In this document: positions 19,867 to 50,000 of the stretch, one piece after another
Layout of the letters: every line of letters starts with the position of its first letter
Position numbering within the stretch: position 1 is the first letter of the stretch
Virus record (IMG/VR): IMGVR_UViG_3300029904_000353
Span: 1,107-65,106 of that record
Direction: 5' to 3' (one strand)
Source of the DNA: a virus
Length of the DNA stretch: 64,000 nt
Made by a program: the position numbers and the translations under genes
The notes under the pieces: generated by a model
Told to the model about the DNA's origin: nothing
What the model saw: only the letters and a program-made list of their open reading frames with translations
The model's database searches: none

Positions 19867-19871
19867 TTAGT

Positions 19872-31185: not shown

Positions 31186-31608
31186 TTACTCCGTCAAGTA
31201 TTTCACCCATGAGAAGTAGGCGGAATTCTCATTATAATTCGCGTCCTTTTCATTAGCATACGCCTCTTGCTCGAACGACACTGCCCGATAGGCTTTATTA
31301 CCGTCACGCAAGATACAAAGGCGGACTACATACTCCACCCCATACCACAGATAATACAGTAACGGAACTACCAAGAACCACCACGCGCTCACACCCCATG
31401 CCAGCACAGCCACCAGCAACAGCAACCCTGTGAGCATCGTCATCTCCGTCCATTGCCTGGCATGGGTGCATTCATGGTTGCGCACATACTGCGGCACTTC
31501 CGATTCCTTCAACTTGGTAAAGACCCACGGGCCTACCGTTATCGTTTCGCAGTGGCTGAAGAACAACAATACTTCGGCTATCCAGCTTTCGTAATAGATG
31601 CGTTTCAT
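31186..31608 (-). CDS. HExxH membrane-associated metallopeptidase-like protein
   Basis: RNHECTHARQW, two TM segments, SFEQEAY. Confidence 0.7.
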   Translation of the reverse strand: MKRIYYESWIAEVLLFFSHCETITVGPWVFTKLKESEVPQYVRNHECTHARQWTEMTMLTGLLLLVAVLAWGVSAWWFLVVPLLYYLWYGVEYVVRLCILRDGNKAYRAVSFEQEAYANEKDANYNENSAYFSWVKYLTE

Positions 31609-31626
31609 AATCAATATGCTTTTGAA

Positions 31627-32118: not shown

Positions 32119-34661
32119 AAAACTAAAATTTTTTTAATAGAACATATTTCATTCTCTATATTTACTAATTTGCGAGCAATGCTAATGGACGATAATAAAG
32201 CAATATGAGAATATTCCATTGATAAATACCCTTTACTATCCTCTTGTACTAAATCATGTAAAATTTTTCTCCAGTATTGAGCTGTAGAACCAGCTCCTAA
32301 TTTATTTGTTTTCAACCATCTGAATCTAAAAGATGGAGCTAAAGCAATATCTTCTATCGACAAATTAATATCTTCAATCTTTTCTTTTAATCTTTCATCT
32401 GACGAATTTATTACAGAATTATAGTTATTATTATCAAGCATGTTTCTCCAAGAACTCCATCCATCATAATGCTCTCTAATCAACACTCCTCCATTTATAT
32501 CATTGGGAACGTACATTTGAATTATTGATGAATTAGTATCTCCTTTGAATACTGATAATGTCCCATATCTGTAAATAGTATCTGGACCATTGGAAGGCCA
32601 ATCATATTCAGCTAAATTATAGGCTCCATTATCCTTTATATTATTAACATTATCACTAGCACTCAATCTACCTTTATGCGTAAAATATGAAGATATGCCT
32701 CTACCTGCAAGCATTTCTGAATTCAAATTAGTACATAAAGTTCCATTACTTATAGGGATATTTCCATTTGAATTGCCAAATGAATAAGAGCATTGAGAAA
32801 TAGTTCCTCCATTTAGATAAACAGGACGAGTTGAAGAACCTACAGTAGAAGATAATTTTGTTAAAGTACCATTACTTATATATACTGGGGTATCAGATGA
32901 ACCTACTGTATCAGTATAATCATCAATATAAGTAGCCCCAGAATAATATGCCAATCTTCCAGAGGAACCACTATTTACATTAGCTGATAGATTGTAGGAA
33001 CATTCAGTAGGAATTCCTAAATTTAAGTATATGGGTTTTGAAGTAGCCCCAACCGTTGAATTACCTAATTTATTGACTATTCCCGAGAAATTATTATTGT
33101 CAACAATAGTTCTCCAACTTTGCCAATCATTTACTTCATATTTTTGTCTAATATTGATTCCATAGGAATTATTATGTGGAATATAAATTTGAGTGACGGG
33201 ATGGTCTACACCAGATTTGAATACCAATAACATACCATATTCATACGTATTATCAGGTCCATCAGATGGGAATGATTCTGATAAAATCTGATAAGAACCA
33301 GATTTTACTATATCATCAAAACTTCCATTGCTATATAATCCTGATTCTTCAAAACTATCCAGAATACCATACCCCGATAAGGTCGTAGGTTTTACTCCTT
33401 GCAGAAGAGATTTCCAAGAATTATCCAAATCTGAGATGCTATCCAAATCCGTAGAAACATAATCTGACAGATTTTCATTTATCCATTTCCCACTACTGCT
33501 TATAAGTATTTGGTTATCTTGTAAAGATGCAATATCTACATCCGAAAGTTCTGATAATCCTCCTGTGACAGAACCTTCTTCGCCTTTTTCACCTTGTGGA
33601 ATACCAAGATTTAATTTGTATTTAGGATTACCCTGCAAGTCTGTTCCATCAGGAATTAAAGATGCTGTAGCTGAAGAACCTGGGGCTAATGTGGATGTCT
33701 GACCTATTTCCAATACAGGGGTTTTGCCATCTTCTCCATCAGCTCCAGCAGGACCAGTTCCACCTTGTTCCCCTTGGGGTCCCTGTGGTCCTTCTGGTCC
33801 TGTTTCTCCTTGTAAACCCTGTGCCCCTCTTTCTCCCTGTTCACCTTTTTCTCCTTGAGGGCCTTGTTCTCCAGTATCGCCCTTTTGTCCTTTGGGGATA
33901 GATACATTTACTAAATATTTAGGATTACCACTTGTATCAGTCCCGTTAGATGTAATATCAATAGAAGGTTGTGCAGAAGAATCTACAGAAGTAGCAGTTC
34001 CAGATTCAAATATTGGAGTTTTTCCATCTGCTCCATTTGTGCCATCTGCTCCAGACTCTCCCTTTTCACCTCTTGGAATACCCAAATTTATTTTGTACTT
34101 TGGATTTCCATCTGCACTCACTCCATCTGATTCTACACTGCCTGTGGCGGAAGTATTAGGCTGCAATGTTGTCACAGTACCAGATACAAATACAGGTGTT
34201 TTCCCGTCAAAACCATCCTTGCCTTTAGCTAAAACACCTGTATCTTCGTCACCAATATACCAGTTGCCATTTTCGCCTATATGTGGAGTAGTTCCTGCTT
34301 CTCCCTGCATATAAAAAGGAGGGAGTTCTATACTCACTTCGCAACAATCTGTCCTGTTTGTAGTAAGTATAATCCCTATATCTCTCTTATCCCATAAATC
34401 ACAAATTCCGTCATGAAAATCTTGGTCACTAAGATAAAAATGTCTTGTACAGGTTAAAATTCCAGGGGGAAGATTATGGTCGTCAAATACAACTAAAAGA
34501 CGACCATCTTCCTGTAACTGGCAATTTGTATAAATCCCATCTACATGGCTTGCTACATACTGCCTATCAAAAACAGTACGATATTCAAAGAGAAATGGAA
34601 CAGTAAAGTCACATCCTTCTTCAAACAGTTTAAAATCAGATTTATAATTTATACTATACAT
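32115..34661 (-). CDS. Tail fibre with collagen repeats, two knob-like repeats and C-terminal intramolecular chaperone
   Basis: GxY collagen run, 3x GKTP..GT..T...KY..N..IP.G.KG; duplicated G.Y...P..GP...YG.L.VFK...W.SWR domain; SDERLKEKIEDI (peptidase S74-type) motif. Confidence 0.85.
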   Translation of the reverse strand: MYSINYKSDFKLFEEGCDFTVPFLFEYRTVFDRQYVASHVDGIYTNCQLQEDGRLLVVFDDHNLPPGILTCTRHFYLSDQDFHDGICDLWDKRDIGIILTTNRTDCCEVSIELPPFYMQGEAGTTPHIGENGNWYIGDEDTGVLAKGKDGFDGKTPVFVSGTVTTLQPNTSATGSVESDGVSADGNPKYKINLGIPRGEKGESGADGTNGADGKTPIFESGTATSVDSSAQPSIDITSNGTDTSGNPKYLVNVSIPKGQKGDTGEQGPQGEKGEQGERGAQGLQGETGPEGPQGPQGEQGGTGPAGADGEDGKTPVLEIGQTSTLAPGSSATASLIPDGTDLQGNPKYKLNLGIPQGEKGEEGSVTGGLSELSDVDIASLQDNQILISSSGKWINENLSDYVSTDLDSISDLDNSWKSLLQGVKPTTLSGYGILDSFEESGLYSNGSFDDIVKSGSYQILSESFPSDGPDNTYEYGMLLVFKSGVDHPVTQIYIPHNNSYGINIRQKYEVNDWQSWRTIVDNNNFSGIVNKLGNSTVGATSKPIYLNLGIPTECSYNLSANVNSGSSGRLAYYSGATYIDDYTDTVGSSDTPVYISNGTLTKLSSTVGSSTRPVYLNGGTISQCSYSFGNSNGNIPISNGTLCTNLNSEMLAGRGISSYFTHKGRLSASDNVNNIKDNGAYNLAEYDWPSNGPDTIYRYGTLSVFKGDTNSSIIQMYVPNDINGGVLIREHYDGWSSWRNMLDNNNYNSVINSSDERLKEKIEDINLSIEDIALAPSFRFRWLKTNKLGAGSTAQYWRKILHDLVQEDSKGYLSMEYSHIALLSSISIARKLVNIENEICSIKKILVL

Positions 34662-34681
34662 AAATGATAGTAATGATTTAA

Positions 34682-37486
34682 TTACACTAATTCTTCCCCA
34701 GAGAATTTAATCCAATTCCCCCACTTGCCATTTAGATACAATCTTTTATATATATAGTTATCATTTCCATATGCTATGACAAAACTACCTTCGTTATTTC
34801 CTGTCAACCCTGGACCTGATTTGAATACTTGCATCAGACAAAACAAATCATAACCGTCTATTGTTACTACTCCTGTTCTATAAAAAAATCCGACCGAATT
34901 ATCATTGGATAAAAGAGTTCCCCAATCTGTAGACTGGTTAAAATTATCACAGACGATAGAAGTGTCCTTATCGCTAATGAAAATAGTTGATGATGAAAGA
35001 TTATGTATCTTTGTATTGCTTAATGGCAGTTCTACAGCTCCACTTGGCAAAGAAGCTATTGGTAAGGAATAACTTGCCAGTGCAAATCCTTTGTTTAGAA
35101 CGGGAACAACCTTTGTCAATCCCATTCCAAGATTATTATAGTAATACAAATGATACAAGTTATCCTTCAGCACATAATAGAATTTACCAAAGTTGGCTAT
35201 AGGGGAAGCGTAATTGGGCGTATAATATGTGGTATAAACAGAACTTGATATAGTGCCACGCTGACTCTTGATTCTGAAAACCACATCCAAGTAATCCATC
35301 TGGGTAATCCTTAAAAGCAAGAATTTTGGACTTTCCCAATCACTGTCCTGTGAATACTGAAGTGTTCCAAGATAAATATATGGACTGGATGATTCCCAGA
35401 ATCTTGTAGTAATGTTTGGACTGACTGCTTCATTGAATCCTCCTATATCTCCTATGGTAGTACCAGACAAATCACTATATAAATCCCAAACGACCCCATT
35501 GAATCTGTTTTCTATTATATTATTTGTGTACGGATAAATATCAAAAACTTTTTTCTTATCTCCTTCATAACTAAGATTTTGATAAATTATATCAAAATTG
35601 TTTGCTCTTACCTCTTCTCCAGTACCTGCATTAAGGATTTGTACAAGAGTTTTAGTCAATGCCGTGCATTCTCTTGCAAGATTCGAGTTTACCCATGAAT
35701 CTTTAGAAACTCTTTCAGTATCTATTTTAAGAGCAATATCTATATTATCGAAGAATATGTTAGAGAAATAATTATAGTTTATTCCACCATCTTTGGCATG
35801 TAGATATATTCCAACCTTATCATAGCTTTCTGTTAGTGTTGAGTGTATTTTTAAATCATGAATTCTATTAAATTCAGTCCATCCAATGTTGCTGTTTGTT
35901 TCCAACGTCACAAAGTTACCAGAGTAGTCCAATGACGCGTCTAATAACAAATCAAATAATTGATTATAGGACCCCCTTATGATAATTCCAGAATTATTTG
36001 TGAATGTAATCCTTGTATTAGGAAAACTGCCAAATAAAATCTTATCTCCATCTAATATCAAATCAGAAGATACTTCTACATTAGAAACAAGGCAACAAGA
36101 TTTGAATACATCAATAACCTTTTGAATGCTACCCCCTGAATTGCCAAACCATTCAATAAATCCTCCAGTAACATTCCATGTTCCAGAAAACGAAAGGGTG
36201 TCCCAGAATATTTTCTGTAAGCCTGAAATTATTTTGGTATTTTCACCTAAAATTGTTCCATTTCTCAAACTCCCTCCTTGAAAATCCAACGTACACCCTT
36301 CCGGTACAGTTATCGTCTCCCCATCCAAATCATAATCATACTGGATGATATACCGCGTATTCGCCTTATTCATCATCGCCTGTGTCAGCACATTCTTTCC
36401 GTCGGATATGTTCTTGCGAAGATATACACGACCAAGCCCACTGAACAAAGACGCGTTATATTCCTTGTTTGCAAACTGAAGCACATGGACATCTGCGGAC
36501 TTCTCAATAGAATGGAGATCTTCTTCATCCGGATTGTTCACGATCTCTACACCCCCTTCCCCTCCGGGTTGGGTATAGAGTTTGCCTGTAACAGGATCTA
36601 TCTTCACTTCTTGGGTATCTAAGGAAGTTTTAGTCGCAGCTTTTATGCCTCCTAGTGTGGTTTCTGTAGCCGCTTTTAATTCCTCCCCGCCTTTAGGTAC
36701 ATAAAGTTTTCCATCAGAACCAATTTTAACTTCTACGGTTTCACTACTGGTCTTGCTTGCAGCTTTGATACCGCCCAACTTCGTTTCTGTTGCCACAGAC
36801 AACGACCCTCCTCCGGGTTTCACATACAAGCGACCGGTTTCCGGATCCACCTTGACCTCTTCCGTTTCGTCATCCGTCTTAGTGACTGCGGTGATGCCAC
36901 CCAGCTTGTGCTCTTGAGCAACTTCCAGCTTAAACTTCAGCGAATCCAGATATTCGCCCTCAGTCCCATTGAAATCGCCGCGCAACACCGCTATTTCGTA
37001 GGCAGAAAGGCCGTCATAGCCATACGTGGCCACGGCGCTTCGGATCTTGATTTCCGCCTCTCCGCTATCCTTATAAAAAGTCGATTCACTGTCATATTCC
37101 GTCAACGCAAACACAAAATCCTTGCGCGAACGCATGATACAGCGGTCGTTGAAACGATGGTCGTGCGGATGCTTGAAGGGCCAGCGCAGAGGTTGGTTGC
37201 GGCAACCGGAATCCACGCTTGGCGTAAGGGTATCCGAACAGGGAAGGAGATTGTTATAGTTCTTCACCCAGATAGCTTCCAGCGAATAAGCGCCTTCCGG
37301 CAATCCCTGCGGAATGTCGAACACAAGATTCCCGCCTTCAGCCACAGCTTCAAGCAGGTATTTCTCATAATTACCGATAAGGAACACTTTGACCAACGCG
37401 CGAGAAAAGTCTTCGTGAACGTCGCTGGTGCCACGGAAGATGCTCCATACGACATGTATCTGACGGTCTTTGCTGATGTATATCAT
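34682..37486 (-). CDS. Tail spike/receptor-binding protein with putative beta-helix
   Basis: 3x (V/A)A..T.LGGI.A..KT repeats, YDYDLDGETITVPEGCTLDFQGG, N-rich beta-helix-like middle. Confidence 0.78.
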   Translation of the reverse strand: MIYISKDRQIHVVWSIFRGTSDVHEDFSRALVKVFLIGNYEKYLLEAVAEGGNLVFDIPQGLPEGAYSLEAIWVKNYNNLLPCSDTLTPSVDSGCRNQPLRWPFKHPHDHRFNDRCIMRSRKDFVFALTEYDSESTFYKDSGEAEIKIRSAVATYGYDGLSAYEIAVLRGDFNGTEGEYLDSLKFKLEVAQEHKLGGITAVTKTDDETEEVKVDPETGRLYVKPGGGSLSVATETKLGGIKAASKTSSETVEVKIGSDGKLYVPKGGEELKAATETTLGGIKAATKTSLDTQEVKIDPVTGKLYTQPGGEGGVEIVNNPDEEDLHSIEKSADVHVLQFANKEYNASLFSGLGRVYLRKNISDGKNVLTQAMMNKANTRYIIQYDYDLDGETITVPEGCTLDFQGGSLRNGTILGENTKIISGLQKIFWDTLSFSGTWNVTGGFIEWFGNSGGSIQKVIDVFKSCCLVSNVEVSSDLILDGDKILFGSFPNTRITFTNNSGIIIRGSYNQLFDLLLDASLDYSGNFVTLETNSNIGWTEFNRIHDLKIHSTLTESYDKVGIYLHAKDGGINYNYFSNIFFDNIDIALKIDTERVSKDSWVNSNLARECTALTKTLVQILNAGTGEEVRANNFDIIYQNLSYEGDKKKVFDIYPYTNNIIENRFNGVVWDLYSDLSGTTIGDIGGFNEAVSPNITTRFWESSSPYIYLGTLQYSQDSDWESPKFLLLRITQMDYLDVVFRIKSQRGTISSSVYTTYYTPNYASPIANFGKFYYVLKDNLYHLYYYNNLGMGLTKVVPVLNKGFALASYSLPIASLPSGAVELPLSNTKIHNLSSSTIFISDKDTSIVCDNFNQSTDWGTLLSNDNSVGFFYRTGVVTIDGYDLFCLMQVFKSGPGLTGNNEGSFVIAYGNDNYIYKRLYLNGKWGNWIKFSGEELV

Positions 37487-37492
37487 AACGAA

Positions 37493-38161
37493 TTAGGATG
37501 GATTAAAATTTGACGTTGCCAGTTTAAGGAACAAATCTCCTTGTTCAGAATTGCCGCGGCTGATTTCAACCAGGCCGGCGCAATAGTATACTATAGATGA
37601 GCGCAACAGGGCGGGAATACCAATGGTATCGCCTGAATCTCCCGAACGTACTATAGGAAGGGGAATATACAAGGCGCGTTCAATGCTATGGTCTGCCTTG
37701 CCGTCTTCACCTTTACCTGCCGTGAAGTATTCCATGGTGCGTTGCCCTTCCGCATTGTGCGAAAATACGCAGACCGGTTTCAGAGGTGTGCCTCTGGTGA
37801 AAGAATTACGTTGCATCAAGTCCGTGCTGCTCCCCTCTTCGGCTACGGAGGTCACGGCGCGGTTCCACGACTTCAGTTTGATACTTACCAACCGGAGAAA
37901 GTCGTCCGGCAACAGTATATAGCCACAACCGTCGCCTGCATCAACGGGCTTGACGGATCCAAGATCCAAGCTTTCCGCATCCAACAGCTGTGAGGGGCAC
38001 ATTTCGATAACAGAACGAACTGCCACCGCCAGTTTGGCGCGGATAAGTTCGTCCAGCTCCATGTTGTCCGTTCCTGTGGCCAGGTATTCACTTTCCACTT
38101 GGTTTTCGTCAAGAGTGATGCGAACAGCTTCCACCAATTCCTCTACCGGTACTTGCTTCAT
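37493..38161 (-). CDS. Head-tail adaptor-like protein
   Basis: YILLPDDFLRLVSIKLKSW...IVYYCAGLV; downstream of capsid. Confidence 0.6.
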   Translation of the reverse strand: MKQVPVEELVEAVRITLDENQVESEYLATGTDNMELDELIRAKLAVAVRSVIEMCPSQLLDAESLDLGSVKPVDAGDGCGYILLPDDFLRLVSIKLKSWNRAVTSVAEEGSSTDLMQRNSFTRGTPLKPVCVFSHNAEGQRTMEYFTAGKGEDGKADHSIERALYIPLPIVRSGDSGDTIGIPALLRSSIVYYCAGLVEISRGNSEQGDLFLKLATSNFNPS

Positions 38162-38680: not shown

Positions 38681-40096
38681 TTAGAGGCTTGCCAGCTTCA
38701 CCCGAGCATGTGCCTTCGGATAGACCAGGTAGCAGCAGCTTGCCTCCTTCATCACGACAGCCTGCGTGTCGCGCTTTGCCAGCTTGGCCATGTCGTACTC
38801 TTTGCGGCTCCAGGGGAGGAACGTCTTCTTGCGGAGGTATTCCGGATCGATAACAAACATCTCGTCGCTCTTCTCGTTCATGTCCATCAGTTCATGGTGC
38901 ATCACGAGCAGTTTGCCGAAATTGCTGTCGAACGAGGTGAACTTCAGTCCCCAACGCTCAAATTCCTTCACCACCTTGAAGCGTTCGCTCTGCATCTTGG
39001 CCAGCGTGGCAAGCATCGTACTGCCTGCAAAGCCAACCTTCGTGCCGTTACCAGAATCATTGCCGGTAAAGAGGTCTTTCAGGAAATCCACCATCTGGTC
39101 GTCGGTGATGGTAACTGAACCCGATGCAGCAGTGCCGATGGACATGTCCTTGCCGGCCATCCAGTAGATGCCGCCGGTGAAGTAAACATCTGCACCGCTC
39201 TTTTTCGGATCTTTGCTCTTTCCCTTGATGCCGAACAAATAACTGTTCTCCATGCCAAGGCGCATATCATAGATGCCGTCCTCCTCCATGTCGGAGAAAT
39301 TCCAGTCAACTTTCTTATCCCACATCTTGTCGAAAGTGGACTGCTCCACCTGCATCATGAACTTCTGGCAGAACTGTTCTTCCGGCGTGGGAAGGTTGTA
39401 GAAGTTGCCGGTCTCCACATCGATTTCCGATGCGGCGCGCCCCATGCGGATAAGGACAGTATCGACATTAATCTGCGGCACCAGACTGTTCGTCTGGTCG
39501 CTGTTCTTCTTGCCGTTGACGGCAATCACCACCGGATAACCCGTTTCGTCGTTCTTTCCCACTACGTACAGCATCAGGTCTTTGGTGTCTTCTGTTACAC
39601 CGTCGGCCTTGTAACCCTTCACGCCCACCACGCGGATAGTGTCCGTCAGCGAGAAAATGGAACCATCGTCCACCTGCACCGTAGTGGATGCCTGGCCGCT
39701 CGTCATGGCATTGACTTGCGTCTTGACCGTCGTCTTGATGGGGCGGGTAGCCACGCTGTAATACTGCACCACCATGCTTCCGCTGCGCGAAATCGTACTG
39801 GCACTTCGCGTAATCTGGTCGATAGGCGTGCGCATCGGACGCATCTTGGTGATGCGTTTGTCTACTTCCTTGGCATAATAATCCGGATCATCGTCCCCGG
39901 TCTGTTCAATGCCGGTCGTTGCCGTGGCGCCACCCAGCGAGTTGGTAATGTTCTTACCTCCATCTGCCATGTCCGTTGCCTCACCGCCCATGGCAGTAGC
40001 AGCCGCCATACATACGCCGGTCATCGAACTGGCCACGATGGCCAGCAACATCAACAATGCCTGGCCAAACCATTGATAGATTTTCTTCCCTTTCAT
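38681..40096 (-). CDS. Major capsid protein with N-terminal hydrophobic segment
   Basis: Follows scaffold; PIDQITR, NFCQKF-like FCQKFMMQVEQS, MENSYLFG, FTGGIYW, DTQAVVMKE; N-terminus WFGQALLMLLAIVASSMTGVCMAAA. Confidence 0.82.
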   Translation of the reverse strand: MKGKKIYQWFGQALLMLLAIVASSMTGVCMAAATAMGGEATDMADGGKNITNSLGGATATTGIEQTGDDDPDYYAKEVDKRITKMRPMRTPIDQITRSASTISRSGSMVVQYYSVATRPIKTTVKTQVNAMTSGQASTTVQVDDGSIFSLTDTIRVVGVKGYKADGVTEDTKDLMLYVVGKNDETGYPVVIAVNGKKNSDQTNSLVPQINVDTVLIRMGRAASEIDVETGNFYNLPTPEEQFCQKFMMQVEQSTFDKMWDKKVDWNFSDMEEDGIYDMRLGMENSYLFGIKGKSKDPKKSGADVYFTGGIYWMAGKDMSIGTAASGSVTITDDQMVDFLKDLFTGNDSGNGTKVGFAGSTMLATLAKMQSERFKVVKEFERWGLKFTSFDSNFGKLLVMHHELMDMNEKSDEMFVIDPEYLRKKTFLPWSRKEYDMAKLAKRDTQAVVMKEASCCYLVYPKAHARVKLASL

Positions 40097-40133
40097 CTTT
40101 CTGTTTCGTTTTTAATTGTTATGAATCGTTTTA

Positions 40134-40943
40134 TTAATCGTCCCACACGCTCTTGCGGCGTCCCACAATCTTATCCAGCCGGGAGAGCAACGGGTCTTCA
40201 CGCCTGCCGCTTTCACCACCGCGCCCGCTTTGCGAAATGTCGCTGGGCATATCAGAGGTCTTCGTACGTTTACGCTTGTTCAGGTCGATGTTGGCATTGC
40301 GCCCGGCCACTTCACCCTCTTGTCGTGCCTCGGCCACCCGGGCGTTGGCATCCTGCTGCATCAGGTCATAATTCGCCGCCTTCATCAGCATCATCCAGTC
40401 ATCCTTGTTGATGTCGTTGGTAATGATGCGATCTAACAGACCTCCGTCGCCATATAGATAGGAATAAGCCTTATCAGCATCTTCGTCGGTAAACTTGCCT
40501 TCGGCCTTGGCTGCGTCCAGGTCGTCCAGCATCTTCTGCATATTGGCTTCGGCCTGCGCTTGCAGTTCCTTGTTCCTGGCCTGCTTCTCGGTATATTTCG
40601 AGAAGGCTTCGGCAAATTCCTTGGCCTTGGCTTCGTCGTTCAGGGCTTCGCGGAAATCGTCGCCGTATTGCTCGATGAGGTATTCCATCGGGTTTCCTCC
40701 CTTGCGCATCACCATCAGGAATCCGGCACTGCGCGGGTCGTTGGCCAACAGTTCGCCCAATTCCCGCTGGGCAGCGTCGCTCCTGTCCATCCGGTCCCAT
40801 TCGTCACCCAGGACACCATAAAAAACCTCTTCGTCCCCGACATCCACATCGGGATGACGCTGGCCGAAGCGTTCCATGAATTGTTCCCTTCGGGTCTTTT
40901 CCTGCTGGTTATCAATCTTTTGTATCTCCTTATTTTCTTCCAT
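40134..40943 (-). CDS. Scaffolding protein
   Basis: Acidic, helical, basic C-terminal tip, immediately before capsid; start reassigned to ATG 40943. Confidence 0.75.
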   Translation of the reverse strand: MEENKEIQKIDNQQEKTRREQFMERFGQRHPDVDVGDEEVFYGVLGDEWDRMDRSDAAQRELGELLANDPRSAGFLMVMRKGGNPMEYLIEQYGDDFREALNDEAKAKEFAEAFSKYTEKQARNKELQAQAEANMQKMLDDLDAAKAEGKFTDEDADKAYSYLYGDGGLLDRIITNDINKDDWMMLMKAANYDLMQQDANARVAEARQEGEVAGRNANIDLNKRKRTKTSDMPSDISQSGRGGESGRREDPLLSRLDKIVGRRKSVWDD

Positions 40944-40960
40944 TTCCTTTTTCTTTTTCA

Positions 40961-40995
40961 CAAATGTAACGAGCCGGTTTCACGGCCTGACGATA
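40961..40995 (-). promoter_or_regulatory. Late promoter for scaffold/capsid operon
   Basis: TATCG-N26-TTTG with consensus -7 box TACATTTG. Confidence 0.6.
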
Positions 40996-41021
40996 AAAAA
41001 TGCCACTTGCGGAATATTTCG

Positions 41022-41029
41022 TAATTTTG
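41022..41029 (+). promoter_or_regulatory. -7 promoter box for terminase operon
   Basis: TAATTTTG 31 nt before ATG 41060, divergent from capsid promoter. Confidence 0.55.
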
Positions 41030-41059
41030 AAGCAAGGATAACAGCATCATTCTAAATAT

Positions 41060-41506
41060 ATGAGAAAGAAAGGTAGCGTTTTCGTCCTATCGGACAGCAG
41101 GAACCGGGATTTGCTGCGTGCCTACAACGAGCAGGTGAAAAAGCAGTTATGCCTGTACGGACGTATCACCAAGACGGGGCTTATCGAACGTACCGTAAGT
41201 TCCCCGGCCTCCCGCTTCTGGGTGTCGTCCGAACGGGCTTGCGTCATTATCTACCGCCTGGAGAAAGGGGAATCCATAGGATATATGAAAGAGAACAAAC
41301 TACGGTTCTACACGGAGCTGTACAAAGCCTTCTGCCTGTACCGCGAGCAGCATCCGGAAATCACCTGCGTCAAGCATCTGGTGGAAATCGTAGTCATGCA
41401 ACCCGCTCCCTGCTTCCCCATAACGCCCCGCGTGGCACGCAATATCATCGAAAAAATGCGCCGGAAATGCCAAAAGGAAAAAATAAACAAGTTGAACGGA
41501 AAGTAA
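41060..41506 (+). CDS. Basic protein with internal duplication; candidate late activator or small terminase
   Basis: VSSPASRFWVSSERACVII / VMQPAPCFPITPRVARNII repeats; first gene of terminase operon. Confidence 0.7.
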   Translation: MRKKGSVFVLSDSRNRDLLRAYNEQVKKQLCLYGRITKTGLIERTVSSPASRFWVSSERACVIIYRLEKGESIGYMKENKLRFYTELYKAFCLYREQHPEITCVKHLVEIVVMQPAPCFPITPRVARNIIEKMRRKCQKEKINKLNGK

Positions 41507-41967
41507 TAGTGTCACTTCTATTGCTTAACGTCTATCTGTGGCTGCCGATGAAATATGTTCCGGAACTCGCGGCTTCCTTCAATGCTGCCTGGTACACCCA
41601 TCTATGCAGCCAATGGGCGCATATCGGACTATTCCACCTGGTACTCAACCTATATGTGCTTTGGTTCTTGCGATTTACCTGGAAAGAATTTGGAGTCGCC
41701 TACCTTGTATCCATACCAGCCACCTTTGCATCCTCATCCGGTGCAATCGGTTTCAGCTCGGTCATCTACGCGCTGATGGGGTTGCTGCTGCCGCAGGTTC
41801 GTTTGTCCGTACGCGACTGGGGACTGTTCCTGGTTGTCAATGCGGCCACGGCGTTTGTGCCGTCCATCGCCTTTGGGGTGCATGTCGCGGCGTTTGGACT
41901 GGGGTTCTTATCTGCTAAAATCAAAAAATTATCTGATGAGTATAGAAGAGCTTGTAAAAGAGGATGA
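41467..41967 (+). CDS. Rhomboid-family intramembrane serine protease
   Basis: HIGLFHLVLN (TM2 H-x4-H-L-x2-N), catalytic GFS (GxS), HVAAFGLG (catalytic His helix); about 5-6 TMs; start reassigned to ATG 41467. Confidence 0.8.
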   Translation: MPKGKNKQVERKVIVSLLLLNVYLWLPMKYVPELAASFNAAWYTHLCSQWAHIGLFHLVLNLYVLWFLRFTWKEFGVAYLVSIPATFASSSGAIGFSSVIYALMGLLLPQVRLSVRDWGLFLVVNAATAFVPSIAFGVHVAAFGLGFLSAKIKKLSDEYRRACKRG

Positions 41968-44011
41968 CCGGAGGATGTCCGAGATACGTGCGCCATTCAA
42001 CCCCATCACGGGCGAGGGTTCAGTGGGAAAGAGGAAGAAGGTGCATATTGAGGACGTGTATCCCTATGATATGTTGATTCCTGTCCCCATGCTTCAAAAC
42101 AAGCTCGTAAAGCTCATCCTCAAGAAAGGCAGTATCCGCCAATTTTGTTTGGACCGCTATGGAATATGCGACACAGAAACCCGGGAGAAAGTAGTACGCC
42201 AATTCATCAAAGTGCGTTGCCGGCACGATTTTCCTTTCCTTGCCTATGCCTACAACTTAATCAAGAACAAGGAAGGCGGCAAGATGATACATTTCAAGCT
42301 GAGCTATCCGCAACGCTATCTGCTTTCCATTCTCGAAGATATGCGCCTGGCCGGTGTCCCTATCCGCATCATCTTGCTGAAAGCCCGCCAATGGGGAGGT
42401 TCCACGCTGGTGCAGCTCTACATCGCCTGGATTCAACTCTTTCACAAGGAAGGATGGTATTCCGACATCGTGGCGCAAGACGCTTCCACGTCACGAAAAA
42501 TCAAGGCCATGTACAGCAAGATGCTGGAAAGGTTGCCTCCTTGGCTCATCGGCTGCCCAGACAACGCGCAACTGGCTTTCACGCCTTACGAAGGTTCACA
42601 ACTGGACAGTATCATCACCTACGGAAAGGGTACGAACATCACCAAGGCACGTGATACGGTGATAACCATTGGCACCTACAACAATCCGAACTCCGGACGC
42701 GGCGGCGACATATCGTGCGTCCACTACTCCGAGGTCGGATTGTGGGAAGACACCGACGGCAAAAAGCCCGAAGACATCATCCGCTCCATATCATCCTCCC
42801 TGCTCATGGCTCCGCTCACCGTAGAGGTCATCGAATCCACGGCCAACGGCATGGGGAACTTCTTCTACCGCGCCTACCAGGCGGCCAAGCAGGGAAAGAG
42901 TAACCGGCGTGCCGTATTCGTGCCGTGGTTCAAGATTGAGAAATATACCCGACCTGTTAAAGACCGCAAAGCCTTTGCCCAATGGCTTTTGGACAACAAG
43001 GACAACAACAATCCACCCGAAGGTTGCTTGGATGCCGGCAAGTACTACTGGCACCTCTGGACGCTGGGGGCGACCTTTGAGGCAATCAACTGGTACATCT
43101 TCAAACGGAAGGACTACATTGACCACCAGGACATGATGGCAGAGTTTCCGTCGGACGACATCGAAGCCTTCCGCAACAGCGGCCGCCAGGTGTTCAACAT
43201 CTACTACCTGGACAAGCTGAAAGAGACTTGCAAGCCCCCGATCCACGTGGGAGAAGTGCAGGGCGACGGCGTGAAGGGCAGACGCGCCTTGCAGGACCTG
43301 CATTTCGTGGCCGACCACAACGGGATGCTGAAGGTATGGGCCATGCCGCAGCAGTTGAAGCACCGCATCGCCCGCCGCTACCTAGTCACGGTGGACGTGG
43401 GCGGACGGGGCAAGGAAGCGGACTGGTCGGACATCCTTGTCATTGACCGCTACTGGATGATGTTCGGCGGCAGCCCGGAGGTGGTGGCCGAATGGCACGG
43501 ACACATCGACCACGACCTGCTGGCCTGGAAGGCGGCGCAGATAGCCAGATTTTATGACAACGCCCGATTAGTCATCGAGAGCAACACCATTGAGACGAAA
43601 GACAACGACACGGACGGCGACCAGTCGGAACTCATCTTCAACCAGCTTGCAGGCGAATACGACAACCTCTACGTCCGCAAGGCGTCCGAAGCAAAGATAG
43701 CGCAGGGCATCGCCACCGAGTACGGCTTCCACACCAACCGCAAGACGAAACCCATGCTCATCAGCAACCTCGTGGCTTGCGTCCGCGACCTGTCGTACAT
43801 CGAACGAAACCTCGACGCCATCGCCGAGTATGCGGTCTACGAGAAGAAAGAGAACGGCTCGTTCGGCGCCGCCGACGGCTACCACGACGACCGCGTGATG
43901 ACGCGCGGCATCGGCCTGCACATCTGCTTCAACGAAATGGACCTGCCCGCCGTCGTCAAACCGAAGGACAAACGGCAAAAAACAAAGGTGATGACCGAAG
44001 CAAGCGTATGA
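41936..44011 (+). CDS. terL: Terminase large subunit
   Basis: LKARQWGGST Walker A, VHYSEVGLW Walker B, IESTANG, VTVDVGG RNase H Asp, HDDRVM; start reassigned to ATG 41936. Confidence 0.92.
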   Translation: MSIEELVKEDDRRMSEIRAPFNPITGEGSVGKRKKVHIEDVYPYDMLIPVPMLQNKLVKLILKKGSIRQFCLDRYGICDTETREKVVRQFIKVRCRHDFPFLAYAYNLIKNKEGGKMIHFKLSYPQRYLLSILEDMRLAGVPIRIILLKARQWGGSTLVQLYIAWIQLFHKEGWYSDIVAQDASTSRKIKAMYSKMLERLPPWLIGCPDNAQLAFTPYEGSQLDSIITYGKGTNITKARDTVITIGTYNNPNSGRGGDISCVHYSEVGLWEDTDGKKPEDIIRSISSSLLMAPLTVEVIESTANGMGNFFYRAYQAAKQGKSNRRAVFVPWFKIEKYTRPVKDRKAFAQWLLDNKDNNNPPEGCLDAGKYYWHLWTLGATFEAINWYIFKRKDYIDHQDMMAEFPSDDIEAFRNSGRQVFNIYYLDKLKETCKPPIHVGEVQGDGVKGRRALQDLHFVADHNGMLKVWAMPQQLKHRIARRYLVTVDVGGRGKEADWSDILVIDRYWMMFGGSPEVVAEWHGHIDHDLLAWKAAQIARFYDNARLVIESNTIETKDNDTDGDQSELIFNQLAGEYDNLYVRKASEAKIAQGIATEYGFHTNRKTKPMLISNLVACVRDLSYIERNLDAIAEYAVYEKKENGSFGAADGYHDDRVMTRGIGLHICFNEMDLPAVVKPKDKRQKTKVMTEASV

Positions 44012-44576: not shown

Positions 44577-44819
44577 ATGGGAAACTTCAGCAACCAACAG
44601 AAAGCCAAGGAAGAGGCGAAAGAGCGGGACAAGACCAGACGAGAGAAACTGGCAGGTTATTTCTATGATTCCTCCAAAGTTATTCTGGCAGGTGTAGTGG
44701 TAGGAGGATTAGCACCTTTATTCTCCAAACCTGAGATTGAACTGAATTATTATATCATAATAGCAGGCATCATGGCAACTGTTTTGCTAGCGTGGATAGG
44801 TAATAACATTTTAAAATAG
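44577..44819 (+). CDS. 80-aa two-TM membrane protein (moron-like)
   Basis: Charged N-terminus REKLAGYFYD then two TMs; AT-rich. Confidence 0.78.
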   Translation: MGNFSNQQKAKEEAKERDKTRREKLAGYFYDSSKVILAGVVVGGLAPLFSKPEIELNYYIIIAGIMATVLLAWIGNNILK

Positions 44820-44970: not shown

Positions 44971-46920
44971 TTATGCCTGTCCTACGGCATTCCCTGCCGC
45001 AGGCAATGCCCCCTGCTGTGCCAACATCTGCTGTTGCCGCTCCAGTTCCTGCCGCTGCGTCTGGATGAGCTGGAGCAACTGGTCGCCGAAGGGGAACGCA
45101 CCCACCTGGAGCATCTGCTCGATAGTAATCTGCTTGGCGTTGAGCAGTTGCAACAGCAGTTCGTTGTTCAGTGCGCGATACACCGGCGTATCGTAGCTCT
45201 CCGTGATAGCCAAGTCGAAGTCAATGCCTCCCATCGTCTGCGGGTCATACCGCACCACCGCCGACCGTCCGGCCACCTTCACCGTCATCGGTTCGTCATA
45301 GAACTGCTGGATATTCTTCAATTTCTTCTTGGCATCCGCCGTCAGGAAGCTGGAATACGTCTCCAGCAGGTCGATGATGGACGTAGAAGCATTGTTGGCC
45401 TGCTGCTGGTAAAGCACGCCGCTCGTTCCGCTGGAAGCCTGCTTGCCTTGCAACGCCCCGTGCACGCCGCTCACGTCGTCCATCAGTTGCATCTGTAAGG
45501 TAATCATGTCCTGCAATCCCTGCACCTTGCTGCTGTTCACCATCTGTTGCGGTGGCTTGGCACCTTCCTTCAGCTTTAGCTTGATGACACCGTTGAAACG
45601 TGTCCACTCCTCGGCAATATCCTCGATGTTCATGTCCTCCGGGATGCTGCTTTCATCCACCACCAACACACCCTTGGCCGAGGCTTTCACGATAAAATCA
45701 TTAAGAATGATATAATGGTTGATATACCTTTGCTGATCGATGATGTCCGCCACGAACGGATGAATCTCCCCATCTATAAAAGGATAAGCCTTCACCGTAT
45801 AGGGATGCTCGCCGTGGGCGTATGGCGACTCCCCTTCTTCCAGCACATCCCCGAAAGGCGACAGGAAGCGATAATACCAGTAGTTTTCGATGATATACTC
45901 ATATTCTATCAGTGGCACCCGGTCTTCAGGCATATAGAGACGGATGTTCCCGTTCTCGTCCAGCAGGTAATTGCCCGCCGCGTCCTTCATGCGGTTTTCC
46001 TCCATGCGGGTGGCATTCTCCTGGCGGATGGCTTTCAGGTTGTCGTAAGAGTCGATGTAAGCGTCGCCCTCCAGCCAGTCGTGGCACCACAGGGCCTTCC
46101 GTTGCTCCTGCGTCCACACCTCGATAACACGGCACAGGCTAAGGTCGTAAGGCTGTAGGAAGGACACATAATCGTTGGCATTGCGATGAAAAGTGTCAAT
46201 ATAGTTTGCCAGCACGTCCCGGTTGCGTGCCTTCTTGTAGATGTCCTCCAGGCGTTGCAGGTCGGCATCGCTCTTGGCAAAGGCCGAGGCCAGTTGCCCG
46301 AAAGTGATGTCGTGCAGTTCGCCGATGATGCTCACGTCGTCCATGCGAATGTCGTTCATCTGCCCGTCCATGAAGAAGAAGTTCGGGTTCACGTTGTCCG
46401 TCCAGCAGTCCTGCCTCCCACCCCGCATCGAATACACCTCCTTCTGCACGGCCAGCCCGCCGATGAGGAACTCCTCGAACATGCGGGCATCCAGTTCTTT
46501 TTTGTCATTCAGCTTATTGTTATACTCCAGGATGGTGCTCATCGTCTCGCCCAGTTTCTGCTCCTCCCTGTCCCTTGCAATGCACACCGGTGTCTTCTGT
46601 TGGTTCCGGTACACGCCTATCACGATTCTTGCCAGCCGCCGGATAAGGTTGTTCTTCAGCGGGATGTTGCCCTGCATCCGGATGTATTCCTCCTCGGTGA
46701 TGGTGCGCCCGCAATACTCCACCGGGTCTCCCCATTGGTCGCCGTACATATACCGTTTGTTCCGTTCACGCTCCTTTCGGTAATGGTCCATGCAGTCCCA
46801 GGCACGGGCGGCACGAAACAGGATGTCCATGTAGCGTTTGTTGCTCCGCTGCTTCTTGTCGTATGCCACGGTGTCCGTCTGCGGCAACGGCTGTTTGGGT
46901 ATCAGTCTTCTTCTTGCCAT
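44971..46920 (-). CDS. Portal protein (podovirus type)
   Basis: RERNKRYMYGDQW, NNLIRRL..IVIG, IIDQQRYIN, DDVSGVHGALQG, SGVLYQQQ; start reassigned to ATG 46920. Confidence 0.88.
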   Translation of the reverse strand: MARRRLIPKQPLPQTDTVAYDKKQRSNKRYMDILFRAARAWDCMDHYRKERERNKRYMYGDQWGDPVEYCGRTITEEEYIRMQGNIPLKNNLIRRLARIVIGVYRNQQKTPVCIARDREEQKLGETMSTILEYNNKLNDKKELDARMFEEFLIGGLAVQKEVYSMRGGRQDCWTDNVNPNFFFMDGQMNDIRMDDVSIIGELHDITFGQLASAFAKSDADLQRLEDIYKKARNRDVLANYIDTFHRNANDYVSFLQPYDLSLCRVIEVWTQEQRKALWCHDWLEGDAYIDSYDNLKAIRQENATRMEENRMKDAAGNYLLDENGNIRLYMPEDRVPLIEYEYIIENYWYYRFLSPFGDVLEEGESPYAHGEHPYTVKAYPFIDGEIHPFVADIIDQQRYINHYIILNDFIVKASAKGVLVVDESSIPEDMNIEDIAEEWTRFNGVIKLKLKEGAKPPQQMVNSSKVQGLQDMITLQMQLMDDVSGVHGALQGKQASSGTSGVLYQQQANNASTSIIDLLETYSSFLTADAKKKLKNIQQFYDEPMTVKVAGRSAVVRYDPQTMGGIDFDLAITESYDTPVYRALNNELLLQLLNAKQITIEQMLQVGAFPFGDQLLQLIQTQRQELERQQQMLAQQGALPAAGNAVGQA

Positions 46921-46938
46921 CTCTTCTGTTTTTTGCTG

Positions 46939-46973
46939 CAAAAGAAAGGGTTACACGGAAGAGGGCGGCTATA
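46939..46973 (-). promoter_or_regulatory. Late promoter for portal
   Basis: TATAG ccgccctcttccgt gtaaccctttct TTTG; near-identical to 25795 copy. Confidence 0.55.
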
Positions 46974-47051: not shown

Positions 47052-50000
47052 CTACTTTAGATTATCTATCTGCTCCAGCAGCGAGCGTTTCATCTCCGCC
47101 ACCTTCTTTTGAAGCTCCTCCTTCTCCTTCGTCGCTTCTTCCGGAAGCTTCTTCTCCATATCTCGTATGCGGTCTATGATTCGCTTATTCCTTTTGAAGA
47201 TAAGGTACTTCTTGTAATCATCGGATTGATAGAGCCTGTTCAGCTTATCCAAATAATCCAAGTCGCCACGGGCAGCCTCACGACCATAACCGCGTAACTC
47301 CTTGACCACTTCTTCATACAGGTCATAGAGCTTGTAATATCGCTCATTCACTTTACTGAAGGCTGAACGGTCATCACTGGCATCGTTGAAAAAGCGGTTC
47401 AACACAGGAGTGCTATACCATTGCAGATTGTCGCTCTTTTCACCATTAATGACGCTTTCCACACCTCCTGCCAAAGTTTTTGCGGCTTGATTGAATGTCT
47501 TTGCCATACCGCCGAAGTAGGATTCAAACAAATGTTCCACTTTGGCCGGATTCCAATTCATAATGGGTTCCAGCACATCTGCTTGCTTATATTTATCTCC
47601 TCCGGCCAATTCATTAGTCCATTCGGACAGCTTCACCAACCAATCAGATGTACTGTTGTAGGCTTTCGTCCACTCCGGCATGGTTTCGTTAAAAGCATTT
47701 TGACGATAGATGGGTTTTCCGGTAAAATCCTTGTTCTCGTATATTTGCCAGAACGGACTAATAACATCCGGCATCAGTGTGGTAACCAAATCGCCATTGT
47801 TTCCCAACGGATTGATAGGCAACAGTTCGGTGATTTGGTTGATGGCTTGGTAAGCTATCTTATCCCCGCAATTGGTATCTTCACTGATTGTAGCCTGATA
47901 CGCCATCTCTCCAAGACCATAGAAGGCACGCAGTTCAATAGGCAACGGTATGGTGATGAATTTCCCGTTTCCCGCATATAGGCATAAGTTATTACGACGC
48001 ACCCACTCAGGGAGGTTCCCGTAATAATCATCGTCATCACCTCCCAGCATTGATATGGCTATCCCATTTAACACAGGAACCAAGAATCCTGCTGCGGTAA
48101 ATCCGCCTAAGGTAGTATAAAATGCCTTCGGATTCTTTTTAGACAACCTGCTGAAATTAGCCAAGGACTGAACAGCCGCATTGAAGAACAAATACAGATT
48201 ACGGAACAGTCCTGAGGTCCAACCGAACACGCCGCTCGTTTTCACTCCAGCCCCCTTCTTGTTGAAGTTCACCGTTACTTCTTTGGCATCATTCACCGAT
48301 TCTGAAATTGTCTTTCCCTGTTCCCGTGAAGTCATGTAAGTAGTAAAACGGGAAACATCCTCTGCCCACCGGTTCATCATGCTGAAGAATTGAGCGGAAG
48401 CACGTACGGCACGGAAGTAATCACGTTTACCGGTAATTTTGTTCAACTCACGGCTGACCATCCGCTTATACTCGTCCACGCTGTGCAGCGAGGTATATCC
48501 GGTTTCACCCCCGTTGTCCAGGAACTCTTCAAACAAGGCATCGTCCGCATGGTTTGCATCGCCTTTCCCACGCAGGTTGCGGGCAATAACCCTCATGGCC
48601 CGCGGGATGTTCGCTGCAAACCGTCTGGCGTACGCTCCACCCTCTTTGATGTTCACTGCTGAAACTGCAAAAATCAGGTCACGCGACAAGTTGCTCAATA
48701 CAAACGCCGGATTCCGGTTCGTGAAGTTGGCTGCCAGTTGACGGTTGAATCGGCTGATGCCCTCCAGCATCTTGTTGGGCTCTACCGACGGGTTGGTCAG
48801 CCCGTTCACCGCCTGCGCCGCCCGAGGGCTTCCATTCACAAAGATAAGATAGTCCTTCCCGTTTCGCTTCACGTTCACGATGTGTTCTTTGGCCTGTCGG
48901 GCACTGATACGGTAGTCTATGTTCAACCCTTCCTTCACTTGGGTAGCCTCACCGTTTTCTTTCAGCATGTTCATGCGCTCTTCGTGCTCCTCCACTTTAC
49001 GGGCTATGGTATCGGCATCGTCATTCTCTTCAATATCGGGAAATGACAATACCCATTCTCCCGTACTTGGGTCTTTCACATACCATGCCTCGCGCACAGT
49101 CAGTACGTCCGTCGGATGGTTGATGGCCATGTTCAGGAAATTCTGCTTCATCAGGTTCCGATTTCCTTGCAGGATGGCGCTCTCCGCCATGTTACCTATG
49201 GTGGCCAGCGGGTCGTCCGACATGGAGCGGCGGCCTTTGGCTGACTTCAGCACAGAGTTTACAGGAGACGTTTCCGAATTGAGGTACTCAAACACGTCTT
49301 CCGCCGTCTGTTCGTCCCAGCCGCGCAGGGGGATGTAGTGCTTGAACATCTTGCCCACCTTGTCGTATGTATCCCTGCTCATCATGCCGCTTTCATACGA
49401 CTTGCGGAGCGTTTCCTTTGTAGCAGCATTTACTTTATCCCAAAGAGAGCGGGTATCAAAACGTCGCTCAAATTCATTGACAAGAAGCCGGGCAAATTCC
49501 TTGGGCGTGGCTTCGTCCAAGGTAGTTGAGGACTTCCCCCCGGATAGTTGAGGACTACCTTCGGGATAGTTCTCAACTACCTTTTGCCTATCCCGCAGGG
49601 CTGTCAGGCCGGAGTAATCCTCCTCCAGATGCTGCTCCAGACGTTTCCGGTAATACTTCTCTTTTTCAGCGTCTATCTTGGCCTTCCGCTTGTCGTAGTC
49701 CGCTTGCGTGACGCCGCCCAGCTTGTAAAGTTGCTCCAACTCCTTATACAGTTTTTCAAACCTCCTCTCGGCTTCCTGCGCAGCATCCCGCTCTGCAAAC
49801 ACCTCATTGCGCTCCAGTCCGTGCTTGGCCACCATATAATCGATGATTTCCGGATAACCGGCACCTTGCTTGATCAGGTTGGCCACCTCCTGTAGCATGG
49901 GCTTAAAGAACTTATCGCCATATACCTCCGTTTCACGTGTGCTCTTGCTTGACATTTGGTTTTCGGCCATGTAAGCGTTCTCGTAGCTTTTCAGTTTGCT

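What the first reader, a model, noticed from the sequence alone, without database searches (positions are those of the whole stretch)
38681..41967. Rhomboid protease plus a membrane-anchored major capsid protein: candidate intramembrane-proteolysis route for capsid assembly
Seen: a rhomboid gene with intact catalytic motifs (HxxxxHLxxN, GFS, HVAAFGLG) sits in the terminase operon, overlapping terL and divergent from scaffold/capsid. The capsid ORF starts with a basic stretch and a hydrophobic helix (WFGQALLMLLAIVASSMTGVCMAAATAMGG) ending in small, helix-breaking residues. I found no HK97-, ClpP- or S49-type prohead protease in the window. Established: rhomboids cleave TM helices next to small residues; HK97-fold capsid proteins are normally cytoplasmic. 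Inference: the capsid protein is first tethered to the inner membrane and released or matured by the phage's own rhomboid, which would be an unusual assembly pathway. The single-TM Gly-rich protein (28236-29222) is an alternative substrate.
Basis: partly seen in the sequence, partly recalled or inferred. Interest (0 to 1): 0.88.

Follow-up and report, generated by a model that had tools for sequence, protein, structure and literature searches.

The report
Phage rhomboid tied to capsid leader
A group of Bacteroides phages carries an intact membrane-embedded (rhomboid) protease inside its head-and-packaging genes, and its coat protein begins with a secretion-signal-like greasy leader; the two features are kept together and were lost together once, which suggests an undescribed, still untested, way of processing a virus coat protein.

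Summary
ORF 41467-41967 (+) is a genuine 166-aa GlpG-like rhomboid: the family profile matches GlpG at E=8e-8, the AF2 model has pLDDT 93.6, and the catalytic residues are invariant. It overlaps a terS-position gene and terL, and is divergent from the scaffold and an SU10-type major capsid protein (MCP, 38681-40096, -). The MCP starts with a basic stretch, about 20 hydrophobic residues and a V-x-M-A / A-x-A junction.

Across 294 related loci (159 distinct rhomboids) the rhomboid and the leader always occur together. On a terL tree the rhomboid is one gain and one loss. The single rhomboid-less member (L063) is also the only MCP in that clade, where the neighbouring genes could be read, that lacks the leader. 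No S78, S49 or ClpP protease exists in the complete 67.5-kb provirus.

- Sister phages and more distant Bacteroidales prophages have hydrophobic MCP leaders without any phage rhomboid.
- Flanking charges predict an N-in/C-out leader, the wrong orientation for a cytoplasmic capsid and for canonical rhomboid substrates.
- Cleavage is untested.

I put about 0.5 on the rhomboid acting on the capsid leader. Cultured relatives (BF1-TP2, BS-TP4, BKO1-TP3) make it testable.

The parts
41467..41967 (+). Phage mini-rhomboid intramembrane serine protease, 166 aa, six TM helices. Catalytic Ser97 is at 41755-41757 and His139 at 41881-41883. The TM2 motif is H52/H57/N61.
38681..40096 (-). Major capsid protein, SU10_MCP/DUF5309 family, 471 aa
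39986..40096 (-). Capsid leader, residues 1-37: MKGKK, a hydrophobic stretch, and the junction G-V-C-M-A-A-A-T-A-M-G. It is followed by an acidic Gly/Thr-rich linker that runs to the D-P-D-Y-Y motif (about residue 70).
40134..40961 (-). Scaffold-position protein (phrog_22323). It is highly charged and has no TM segment. The likely start is the ATG at 40943.
40962..41059 (.). Divergent intergenic region with Bacteroides-type TAnnTTTG boxes: TAATTTTG at about 41022 on the + strand and TACATTTG at about 40963 on the - strand.
   Evidence: read from the sequence; not tested
41060..41506 (+). 148-aa gene in the small-terminase position (phrog_27246, function unknown). It overlaps the rhomboid start by 40 nt.
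41936..44011 (+). Large terminase subunit. It overlaps the rhomboid stop by 32 nt.
44971..46941 (-). Portal protein (phrog_156; P22_portal in relative L225)
37493..38161 (-). Head-tail adaptor-position protein (phrog_22135; weak SU10_adaptor match in relative L225)

Best explanation
SHOWN. This Bacteroides provirus belongs to a large clade of temperate phages with SU10/P22-like head genes. At the base of that clade a catalytically intact mini-rhomboid (about 160 aa) was acquired, and it has been kept between the terS-position gene and terL, translationally coupled to both. In the same clade the major capsid protein is made with an N-terminal leader. The leader has 2-4 basic residues, then about 19-22 uncharged residues ending in T-G-A-S-S-G-V-M-M-A-(A/D/E)-A-(S/T), and then a 32-96-residue acidic Gly/Thr-rich linker before the capsid fold.

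INFERRED. The leader takes the capsid precursor, or at least its N-terminus, to the inner membrane. The phage rhomboid acts on that leader at the small-residue junction. It either releases the capsid protein or clears the many leader peptides left in the membrane. In that sense it stands in for the prohead protease that these phages lack.

NOT RESOLVED. How the capsid domain stays in the cytoplasm is unknown, because the flanking charges predict an N-in/C-out leader.
For: The rhomboid is real and looks active. The profile matches GlpG at E=8e-8. The AF2 model has pLDDT 93.6 and its top 32 PDB matches are GlpG. H/H/N, G-x-S and H are invariant and are kept in 163 of 165 distinct ORFs.

Position and coupling are fixed. 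The gene overlaps both neighbours in the window, and the same synteny is seen in 294 locus entries with 159 distinct rhomboid cores and 188 distinct MCP bodies.

In those loci the only conserved module protein with a hydrophobic segment is the MCP. The junction motif occurs in no other real ORF of the window.

On the terL tree there is one rhomboid-bearing clade (support 99) of 108 distinct rows. The only rhomboid-less row, L180 (the same contig as L063), is nested with support 99 beside L152. That same contig has the clade's only leaderless MCP among loci where the synteny can be read. It starts M-K-M-A-A-S-T-L-P-D-A-G, exactly at the junction.

The leaders do not follow the Bacteroidetes Q-rule for signal peptidase I substrates: 0 of 82 have Q near the junction (rule from PMC5837995).

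There is no S78, S49 or ClpP protease in the complete provirus.
Against: Hydrophobic MCP leaders exist without any phage rhomboid. This is so in sister phages L059, L060 and L064 (the L064 record is 100% complete). It is also so in Bacteroidales prophages with about 40% identical MCPs. The leader is therefore older than the rhomboid and does not need it.

The flanking charges (+3 before, -4 after) predict N-in/C-out. That would place the capsid domain outside the cytoplasm, and it runs opposite to the N-out/C-in substrates that rhomboids normally cut (established knowledge of GlpG and AarA).

The junction also fits A-x-A, a signal peptidase I site (74 of 82).

The correlated loss is a single event on one 16.7-kb metagenomic contig. 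Heads with a separate scaffold (P22, T7) need no protease at all. No cleavage data exist.
Confidence: 0.5

Rival explanations
1. The leader and the rhomboid are not enzyme and substrate. The capsid leader is handled by host machinery (signal peptidase I or another host protease) or is never removed. The rhomboid cuts some other membrane protein, such as a lysis regulator. One candidate is the spanin-like protein at 29790-30395, whose C-terminal TM has the canonical N-out/C-in orientation. The holin or a host envelope protein are others.
For: The A-x-A site is present in 74 of 82 leaders. Leaders exist in rhomboid-less sister phages and prophages. The predicted leader orientation is wrong for a rhomboid substrate. 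The window encodes other membrane proteins.
Against: The rhomboid sits in the head and packaging operon, overlapping terL, not in the lysis cassette. It was lost together with the leader in L063. None of 82 leaders obeys the Bacteroidetes Q-rule. The small TM protein next to terL (44577-44819) is found in only 5 of the first 144 rhomboid loci.
Confidence: 0.3
2. Another activity cuts the leader from the capsid protein. The rhomboid only degrades the freed hydrophobic leader peptides, playing a role like signal peptide peptidase. This would protect the membrane from tens of thousands of such peptides late in infection.
For: This reading also predicts strict co-occurrence and joint loss. It removes the need for the rhomboid to cut a precursor in the wrong orientation. 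The MCP is the most abundant late protein, which is general knowledge.
Against: No second protease is found in the provirus. Rhomboid-less relatives with leaders manage without one. Nothing here tells this reading apart from direct release.
Confidence: 0.12
3. The rhomboid is an accessory (moron-like) gene captured from a host, with no role in morphogenesis. Its linkage to the leader is hitch-hiking within one module.
For: The gene was gained once inside an otherwise conserved gene order. Sister phages do without it.
Against: It is retained in 107 of 108 distinct terL lineages over deep divergence, with catalytic residues invariant and overlapping reading frames on both sides. Morons are usually patchy and separately transcribed.
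Confidence: 0.05

Closest known systems
E. coli GlpG and Providencia stuartii AarA (rhomboid proteases, MEROPS S54). AarA removes a short N-terminal extension from TatA.
   Same: They share the six-TM fold, the TM2 H-x4-H-x3-N motif, the TM4 G-x-S motif, the TM6 His and a periplasm-facing active site. AarA with TatA is a precedent for a rhomboid that activates a protein by trimming its N-terminus next to small residues (established knowledge).
   Different: The phage protein is only about 160 aa, with a very short L1 loop. It is phage-encoded and sits in a head and packaging operon. The proposed substrate is predicted N-in, whereas TatA and model substrates are N-out. P2' is small rather than hydrophobic.
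Prohead maturation proteases of tailed phages (HK97 gp4 of family S78, lambda C of family S49, T4 gp21) and the membrane-attached T4 prohead
   Same: Both involve a phage protease gene inside the head module and an N-terminal capsid segment that is dispensable in natural variants. T4 proheads are assembled on the inner membrane and are released after proteolysis (established knowledge).
   Different: Those enzymes are soluble, packaged inside the prohead and unrelated in fold. Their propeptides are not hydrophobic. No member of those families is present here.
Signal-peptide-bearing major capsid proteins reported for Porphyromonas gingivalis 'Nixviridae' prophages (PMC10367356)
   Same: These are also Bacteroidota phages whose MCP scores as carrying a Sec-type signal peptide. 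The authors assume phage-mediated removal.
   Different: That paper attributes removal to a conventional prohead protease and mentions no rhomboid. Whether those MCPs are of the SU10 type was not tested.
Bacteroides phages BF1-TP2, BS-TP4 and BKO1-TP3 (GenBank PQ571263, PQ571277, PQ571269; PMC12694917)
   Same: They are cultured members of the same clade, with MCPs 48-67% identical. BF1-TP2 (gp59) and BS-TP4 (gp8) show the same gene order, and these genes are annotated as rhomboid proteins.
   Different: Only the database annotation exists. The paper's main text never mentions the rhomboid or the capsid leader.
Host Prp-dependent trimming of capsid and scaffold leaders in Staphylococcus phage 80alpha
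   Same: It is a capsid N-terminal leader removed by a protease that is not a classical prohead protease (established knowledge).
   Different: Prp is a soluble host cysteine protease. Its leader is short and mimics ribosomal protein L27, and it is not hydrophobic.

Membership tests
Rhomboid protease (Pfam PF01694, MEROPS S54) | Six-TM helical core with the GlpG fold | tested here: met
   The AF2 model has pLDDT 93.6. The top 32 Foldseek PDB matches are all GlpG, with TM 0.6-0.71 and probability 1.00.
Rhomboid protease (Pfam PF01694, MEROPS S54) | Catalytic dyad: Ser in the TM4 G-x-S-x motif and His in TM6 followed by a small-residue packing motif | tested here: met
   G95, S97, H139 and G146 are invariant in 23 homologues. 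The motifs are kept in 163 of 165 distinct ORFs.
Rhomboid protease (Pfam PF01694, MEROPS S54) | TM2 H-x4-H-x3-N (oxyanion-hole residues) | tested here: met
   H52, H57 and N61 are invariant and align to the GlpG H-x4-H-x3-N motif.
Rhomboid protease (Pfam PF01694, MEROPS S54) | Score above the Pfam gathering threshold | tested here: inconclusive
   The window protein scores 17.8 bits against a cut-off of 22.6. Relatives P0019, P0020, L225 and L226 carry PF01694. The family profile hits GlpG at E=8e-8.
Rhomboid protease (Pfam PF01694, MEROPS S54) | Proteolytic activity on a TM substrate | not testable with these tools
   This needs a biochemical or genetic assay.
HK97-fold major capsid protein, SU10_MCP (PF17236) | Family profile match above threshold, and a position between the scaffold and adaptor genes | tested here: met
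   116 bits against a cut-off of 24. PDB match to 'major capsid of VP1' (9in6) at E=1.9e-9. Gene order.
HK97-fold major capsid protein, SU10_MCP (PF17236) | HK97 fold of the body | tested here: inconclusive
   The AF2 model is poor (pLDDT 55) because the alignment is shallow.
Sec / signal peptidase I signal peptide (Bacteroidota) | Tripartite n-h-c region with A-x-A at positions -3 and -1 | tested here: met
   Basic N-terminus, a median run of 22 uncharged residues, and A-x-A in 74 of 82 distinct leaders.
Sec / signal peptidase I signal peptide (Bacteroidota) | Gln at +1 (the Bacteroidetes Q-rule, which holds for most SPI substrates; PMC5837995) | tested here: not met
   0 of 82 leaders have Q near the junction.
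Canonical rhomboid substrate | Small P1 and hydrophobic P4 next to helix-destabilising residues | tested here: met
   A pattern like V-x-M-A, preceded by G-A-S-S-G, is present in 77 of 82 leaders.
Canonical rhomboid substrate | N-out/C-in orientation of the TM segment and a hydrophobic P2' | tested here: not met
   Net charge is +3 before and -4 after the hydrophobic part, which predicts N-in. P2' is Ala, Ser or Thr. This is a prediction, not a measured topology.
Prohead protease and propeptide system | Protease gene in the head module, plus an N-terminal capsid segment absent from the mature shell | tested here: inconclusive
   Position is met. The leader is dispensable in natural variants L063 and P0074/P0077/P0078. 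Removal from virions was not tested.

The most novel reading that the evidence does not exclude
In these phages, capsid precursors are tethered to the inner membrane by a signal-anchor-like leader. They are released for, or during, head assembly by the phage's own intramembrane rhomboid protease. This would be the first case of a rhomboid acting as a viral capsid-maturation enzyme, and the first case of an HK97-type coat protein that passes through a membrane-bound stage.
Probability: 0.35. Interest if true: 0.92.

Novelty: new variant of a known kind. Interest (0 to 1): 0.8.

Why it matters
Head maturation of tailed phages is thought to use either no protease or a soluble, prohead-packaged serine protease. 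A conserved intramembrane protease in the head module, linked by evolution to a hydrophobic leader on the coat protein, would add a new route.

It would also give bacterial rhomboids, few of whose natural substrates are known, a clear candidate substrate. It raises a sharp question: how does a protein with a secretion-type leader end up in a cytoplasmic capsid?

The phages are common in human gut viromes (BS-TP4 in 31% of healthy Chinese viromes; PMC12694917). Cultured members with Bacteroides hosts exist, so the idea can be tested directly.

Tried and rejected
- Complex prediction of the rhomboid with MCP residues 1-70 gave no verdict. It is neither support nor evidence against.
- The AF2 model of the whole MCP was too poor to use (pLDDT 55).
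- A degenerate DNA pattern for the leaderless variant found nothing in viral or metagenome contigs. A protein search on its N-terminus found only the three short-contig clusters already known. Contigs of P0077 and P0074 end before the rhomboid position. A second test of joint loss was therefore not possible.
- The whole-family rhomboid alignment was too divergent for the search for related loci.
- I first read the roughly 40%-identity MCP genes next to housekeeping genes as a domesticated cassette. I rejected that: they have scaffold, adaptor and sometimes portal homologues beside them and are prophage ends.
- The 'EYRR' tail shared by the rhomboid and by L063's terS-position protein is only the alternative reading frame of the terL start. 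It is not evidence of a fusion.
- Record L212 (leader, no rhomboid) also lacks terL and is uninformative.
- The 400-aa protein at 62383-63585 has only a weak PmbA/TldD central-domain hit and looks more like an ejection protein.
- The 80-aa TM protein at 44577-44819 is not conserved with the rhomboid.
- Literature searches for a phage rhomboid found nothing.
Full report
ANATOMY. The region holds two divergent operons separated by a 98-bp spacer (40962-41059). The spacer carries Bacteroides-type TAnnTTTG boxes on both strands.

Leftward lie four genes:
- a charged scaffold-position protein (40134-40961);
- the major capsid protein (38681-40096; PF17236 SU10_MCP, E=2e-33; phrog_26635 over residues 8-469);
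- a 132-aa protein;
- an adaptor-position protein (37493-38161).

Rightward lie three genes:
- a 148-aa gene in the small-terminase position (41060-41506, phrog_27246);
- the rhomboid (ATG 41467 to 41967);
- terL (ATG 41936 to 44011).

The rhomboid overlaps its neighbours by 40 and 32 nt. The window is nearly all of a 67.5-kb provirus record rated 100% complete. Its nearest relatives sit in Bacteroides genomes.

THE RHOMBOID IS GENUINE. The single sequence is below the Pfam cut-off (17.8 against 22.6 bits, covering 3-137 of 143 profile positions). An alignment of 23 phage homologues of 15-76% identity has only seven invariant columns: H52, H57, N61, G95, S97, H139 and G146. These are the TM2 H-x4-H-x3-N, the TM4 G-x-S and the TM6 His of rhomboid proteases.
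- The profile finds only GlpG and iRhom chains in the PDB. The best is E=8e-8, with the motifs aligned.
- AlphaFold2 gives pLDDT 93.6.
- The top 32 Foldseek matches are GlpG structures.
- Charged loops place the N- and C-termini inside, so the active site faces the periplasm as in GlpG. This I read from the sequence.
- The family is large: 146 clusters at 50% identity with E<=1e-30, nearly all 150-180 aa.

THE CAPSID LEADER IS REAL AND CONSERVED. Of the 120 listed MCP homologues, all full-length ones but three begin with a basic N-terminus, a hydrophobic run and a small-residue junction. The hydrophobic residues vary freely while the character is kept, which is how a membrane segment evolves and shows that it is translated.

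In 82 distinct leaders from rhomboid-bearing phages the consensus is M-K-K, then 13-16 hydrophobic residues, then T-G-A-S-S-G-V-M-M-A-(A/D/E/N)-A-(S/T)-x-L-P-D-A-G. The window's subclade has A-T-A-M-G-G-E in place of the L-P-D-A-G part.
- A pattern like V-x-M-A is present in 77 of 82 leaders.
- A-x-A is present in 74 of 82.
- Gln is present in none.

A 32-96-residue acidic Gly/Thr-rich linker follows, before the first conserved capsid motif. No other real ORF of the window carries the junction motif.

CO-OCCURRENCE. I fetched related loci with the MCP as bait from IMG/VR and from species genomes. In each I looked for the rhomboid with a family HMM.
- There are 294 locus entries with the rhomboid, with 159 distinct rhomboid cores and 188 distinct MCP bodies. 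The rhomboid always lies between the terS-position gene and terL, and the MCP always has the leader.
- MCP identity to the window falls to about 45% in this set.
- Loci that lack a rhomboid hit are mostly contig ends (L005, L035, L055, L164, L268). One record also lacks terL (L212).

A terL tree of 111 distinct sequences puts the rhomboid-less phages L064 and L059+L060 at the base. The rest form one clade (support 99) of 108 rows, of which 107 carry the rhomboid. The exception is L180, the same contig as L063. It is nested beside L152 with support 99. Its terS-position gene runs straight into terL, with no rhomboid.

The same contig has the clade's only leaderless MCP among loci where the neighbouring genes can be read. 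It begins M-K-M-A-A-S-T-L-P-D-A-G, at the junction. All 75 of its closest relatives that can be read have both features. If the two losses were independent, their falling on the same tip would have a chance of roughly 1 in 100. It is still one event on one metagenomic contig.

A second leaderless form, in the window's own subclade (P0074, P0077, P0078, starting M-K-I-E-R-K-Y-L-L-M-A-P-A-G), sits on contigs too short to show the rhomboid site.

WHAT SPEAKS AGAINST A SIMPLE ENZYME-SUBSTRATE STORY.
1. The leader is older than the rhomboid. The basal phages L059, L060 and L064 have hydrophobic leaders of another type, with a second hydrophobic stretch such as A-L-A-V-V-V-P-G-V, and no rhomboid anywhere in their records. 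A large set of Bacteroidales prophages with about 40% identical MCPs also has leaders, many with a lipobox-like Cys. None of the five genomes searched has a convincing phage-type rhomboid. Four had no match, and one had only weak partial matches, the best at E=1.2e-4.
2. The flanking charges (median +3 before, -4 after) predict N-in/C-out. That topology would export the capsid body, and it is opposite to canonical rhomboid substrates.
3. A-x-A fits signal peptidase I. Against regular secretion, none of the leaders follows the Bacteroidetes Q-rule (PMC5837995).

Possible ways out of the topology problem are all speculative:
- a stalled loop intermediate, in which the long flexible acidic linker spans the membrane back to the cytoplasm;
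- a re-entrant hairpin;
- rhomboid action on free leader peptides only.

NO OTHER PROTEASE FOUND.
- S78, S49 and ClpP profiles find nothing in the whole provirus.
- The head, tail and lysis genes and the 5114-aa polyvalent protein show no maturation protease.
- A 142-aa HExxH membrane protein lies in the lysis cassette.
- Heads with a separate scaffold often lack a protease, so this absence alone proves nothing.

WHAT IS KNOWN.
- GenBank records of the cultured Bacteroides phages BF1-TP2 and BS-TP4 annotate the gene as a rhomboid protein. The paper that describes them does not mention it.
- A P. gingivalis prophage study noted SignalP-positive capsid proteins and assumed that a prohead protease removes the signal.
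- I found no paper on a phage rhomboid.
I did not test it.

VERDICT. The evolutionary link between rhomboid and leader within the clade is strong. The mechanism, in which the rhomboid cuts or clears the capsid leader, is the best reading at about 0.5. It is unproven, and the topology problem remains open.

Noticed in passing
L079-L146 (for example L083:7911-9311, L096:7926-9335, L103:7941-9380): Bacteroidales prophages with MCPs about 40% identical carry N-terminal leaders. Many end in a lipobox-like L-(A/S)-(S/G)-C, followed by a second short hydrophobic stretch (A-x-L-A-V-G-x-I-x-G-G). No convincing phage rhomboid was found in the five genomes checked. A capsid protein that looks like a lipoprotein precursor is unexplained.
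   Followed up: partly
window 47052-62396 (-): A 5114-aa polyvalent protein lies next to the portal gene. Its domains are LPD14, PBECR1 nuclease, InPase, an Eco57I-type methylase, an SNF2 helicase and LPD38.
   Followed up: partly
window 29790-31614 (-): This is a lysis cassette. It holds a spanin-like protein with a lipobox and a C-terminal TM (29790-30395), a holin (PF05105, 30618-31148), and a 142-aa membrane protein with an HExxH motif (31186-31614, phrog_15610 'protease'). No classical endolysin domain was seen.
   Followed up: partly
window 62383-63585 (-): A 400-aa protein upstream of the giant gene has a marginal PmbA/TldD central-domain hit (22.8 bits). Its protein-atlas neighbours are phage proteins of unknown function. 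Its role is unknown.
   Followed up: partly
window 44577-44819 (+); L228:468-689: A small TM protein lies after terL (phrog_23063, weak DUF6722). It is present in only 5 of the first 144 rhomboid loci. In BS-TP4, the small gene (gp5) downstream of terL is annotated as a YajC-like Sec accessory subunit.
   Followed up: partly
P0074, P0077, P0078; L066:1196-2557: These are leaderless MCP variants, 80-83% identical to the window's MCP. The hydrophobic stretch is replaced by M-K-I-E-R-K-Y-L-L. The contigs are too short to see whether the rhomboid is kept.
   Followed up: partly
window 32001-36000, 1-2000 and 14001-20000: GC content drops to 35-40%, against about 50% elsewhere. The drops cover much of the two large tail-fibre genes (32115-34661 and 34682-37486) and a lipoprotein gene at 529-1188. 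This suggests recently exchanged modules.
   Followed up: no
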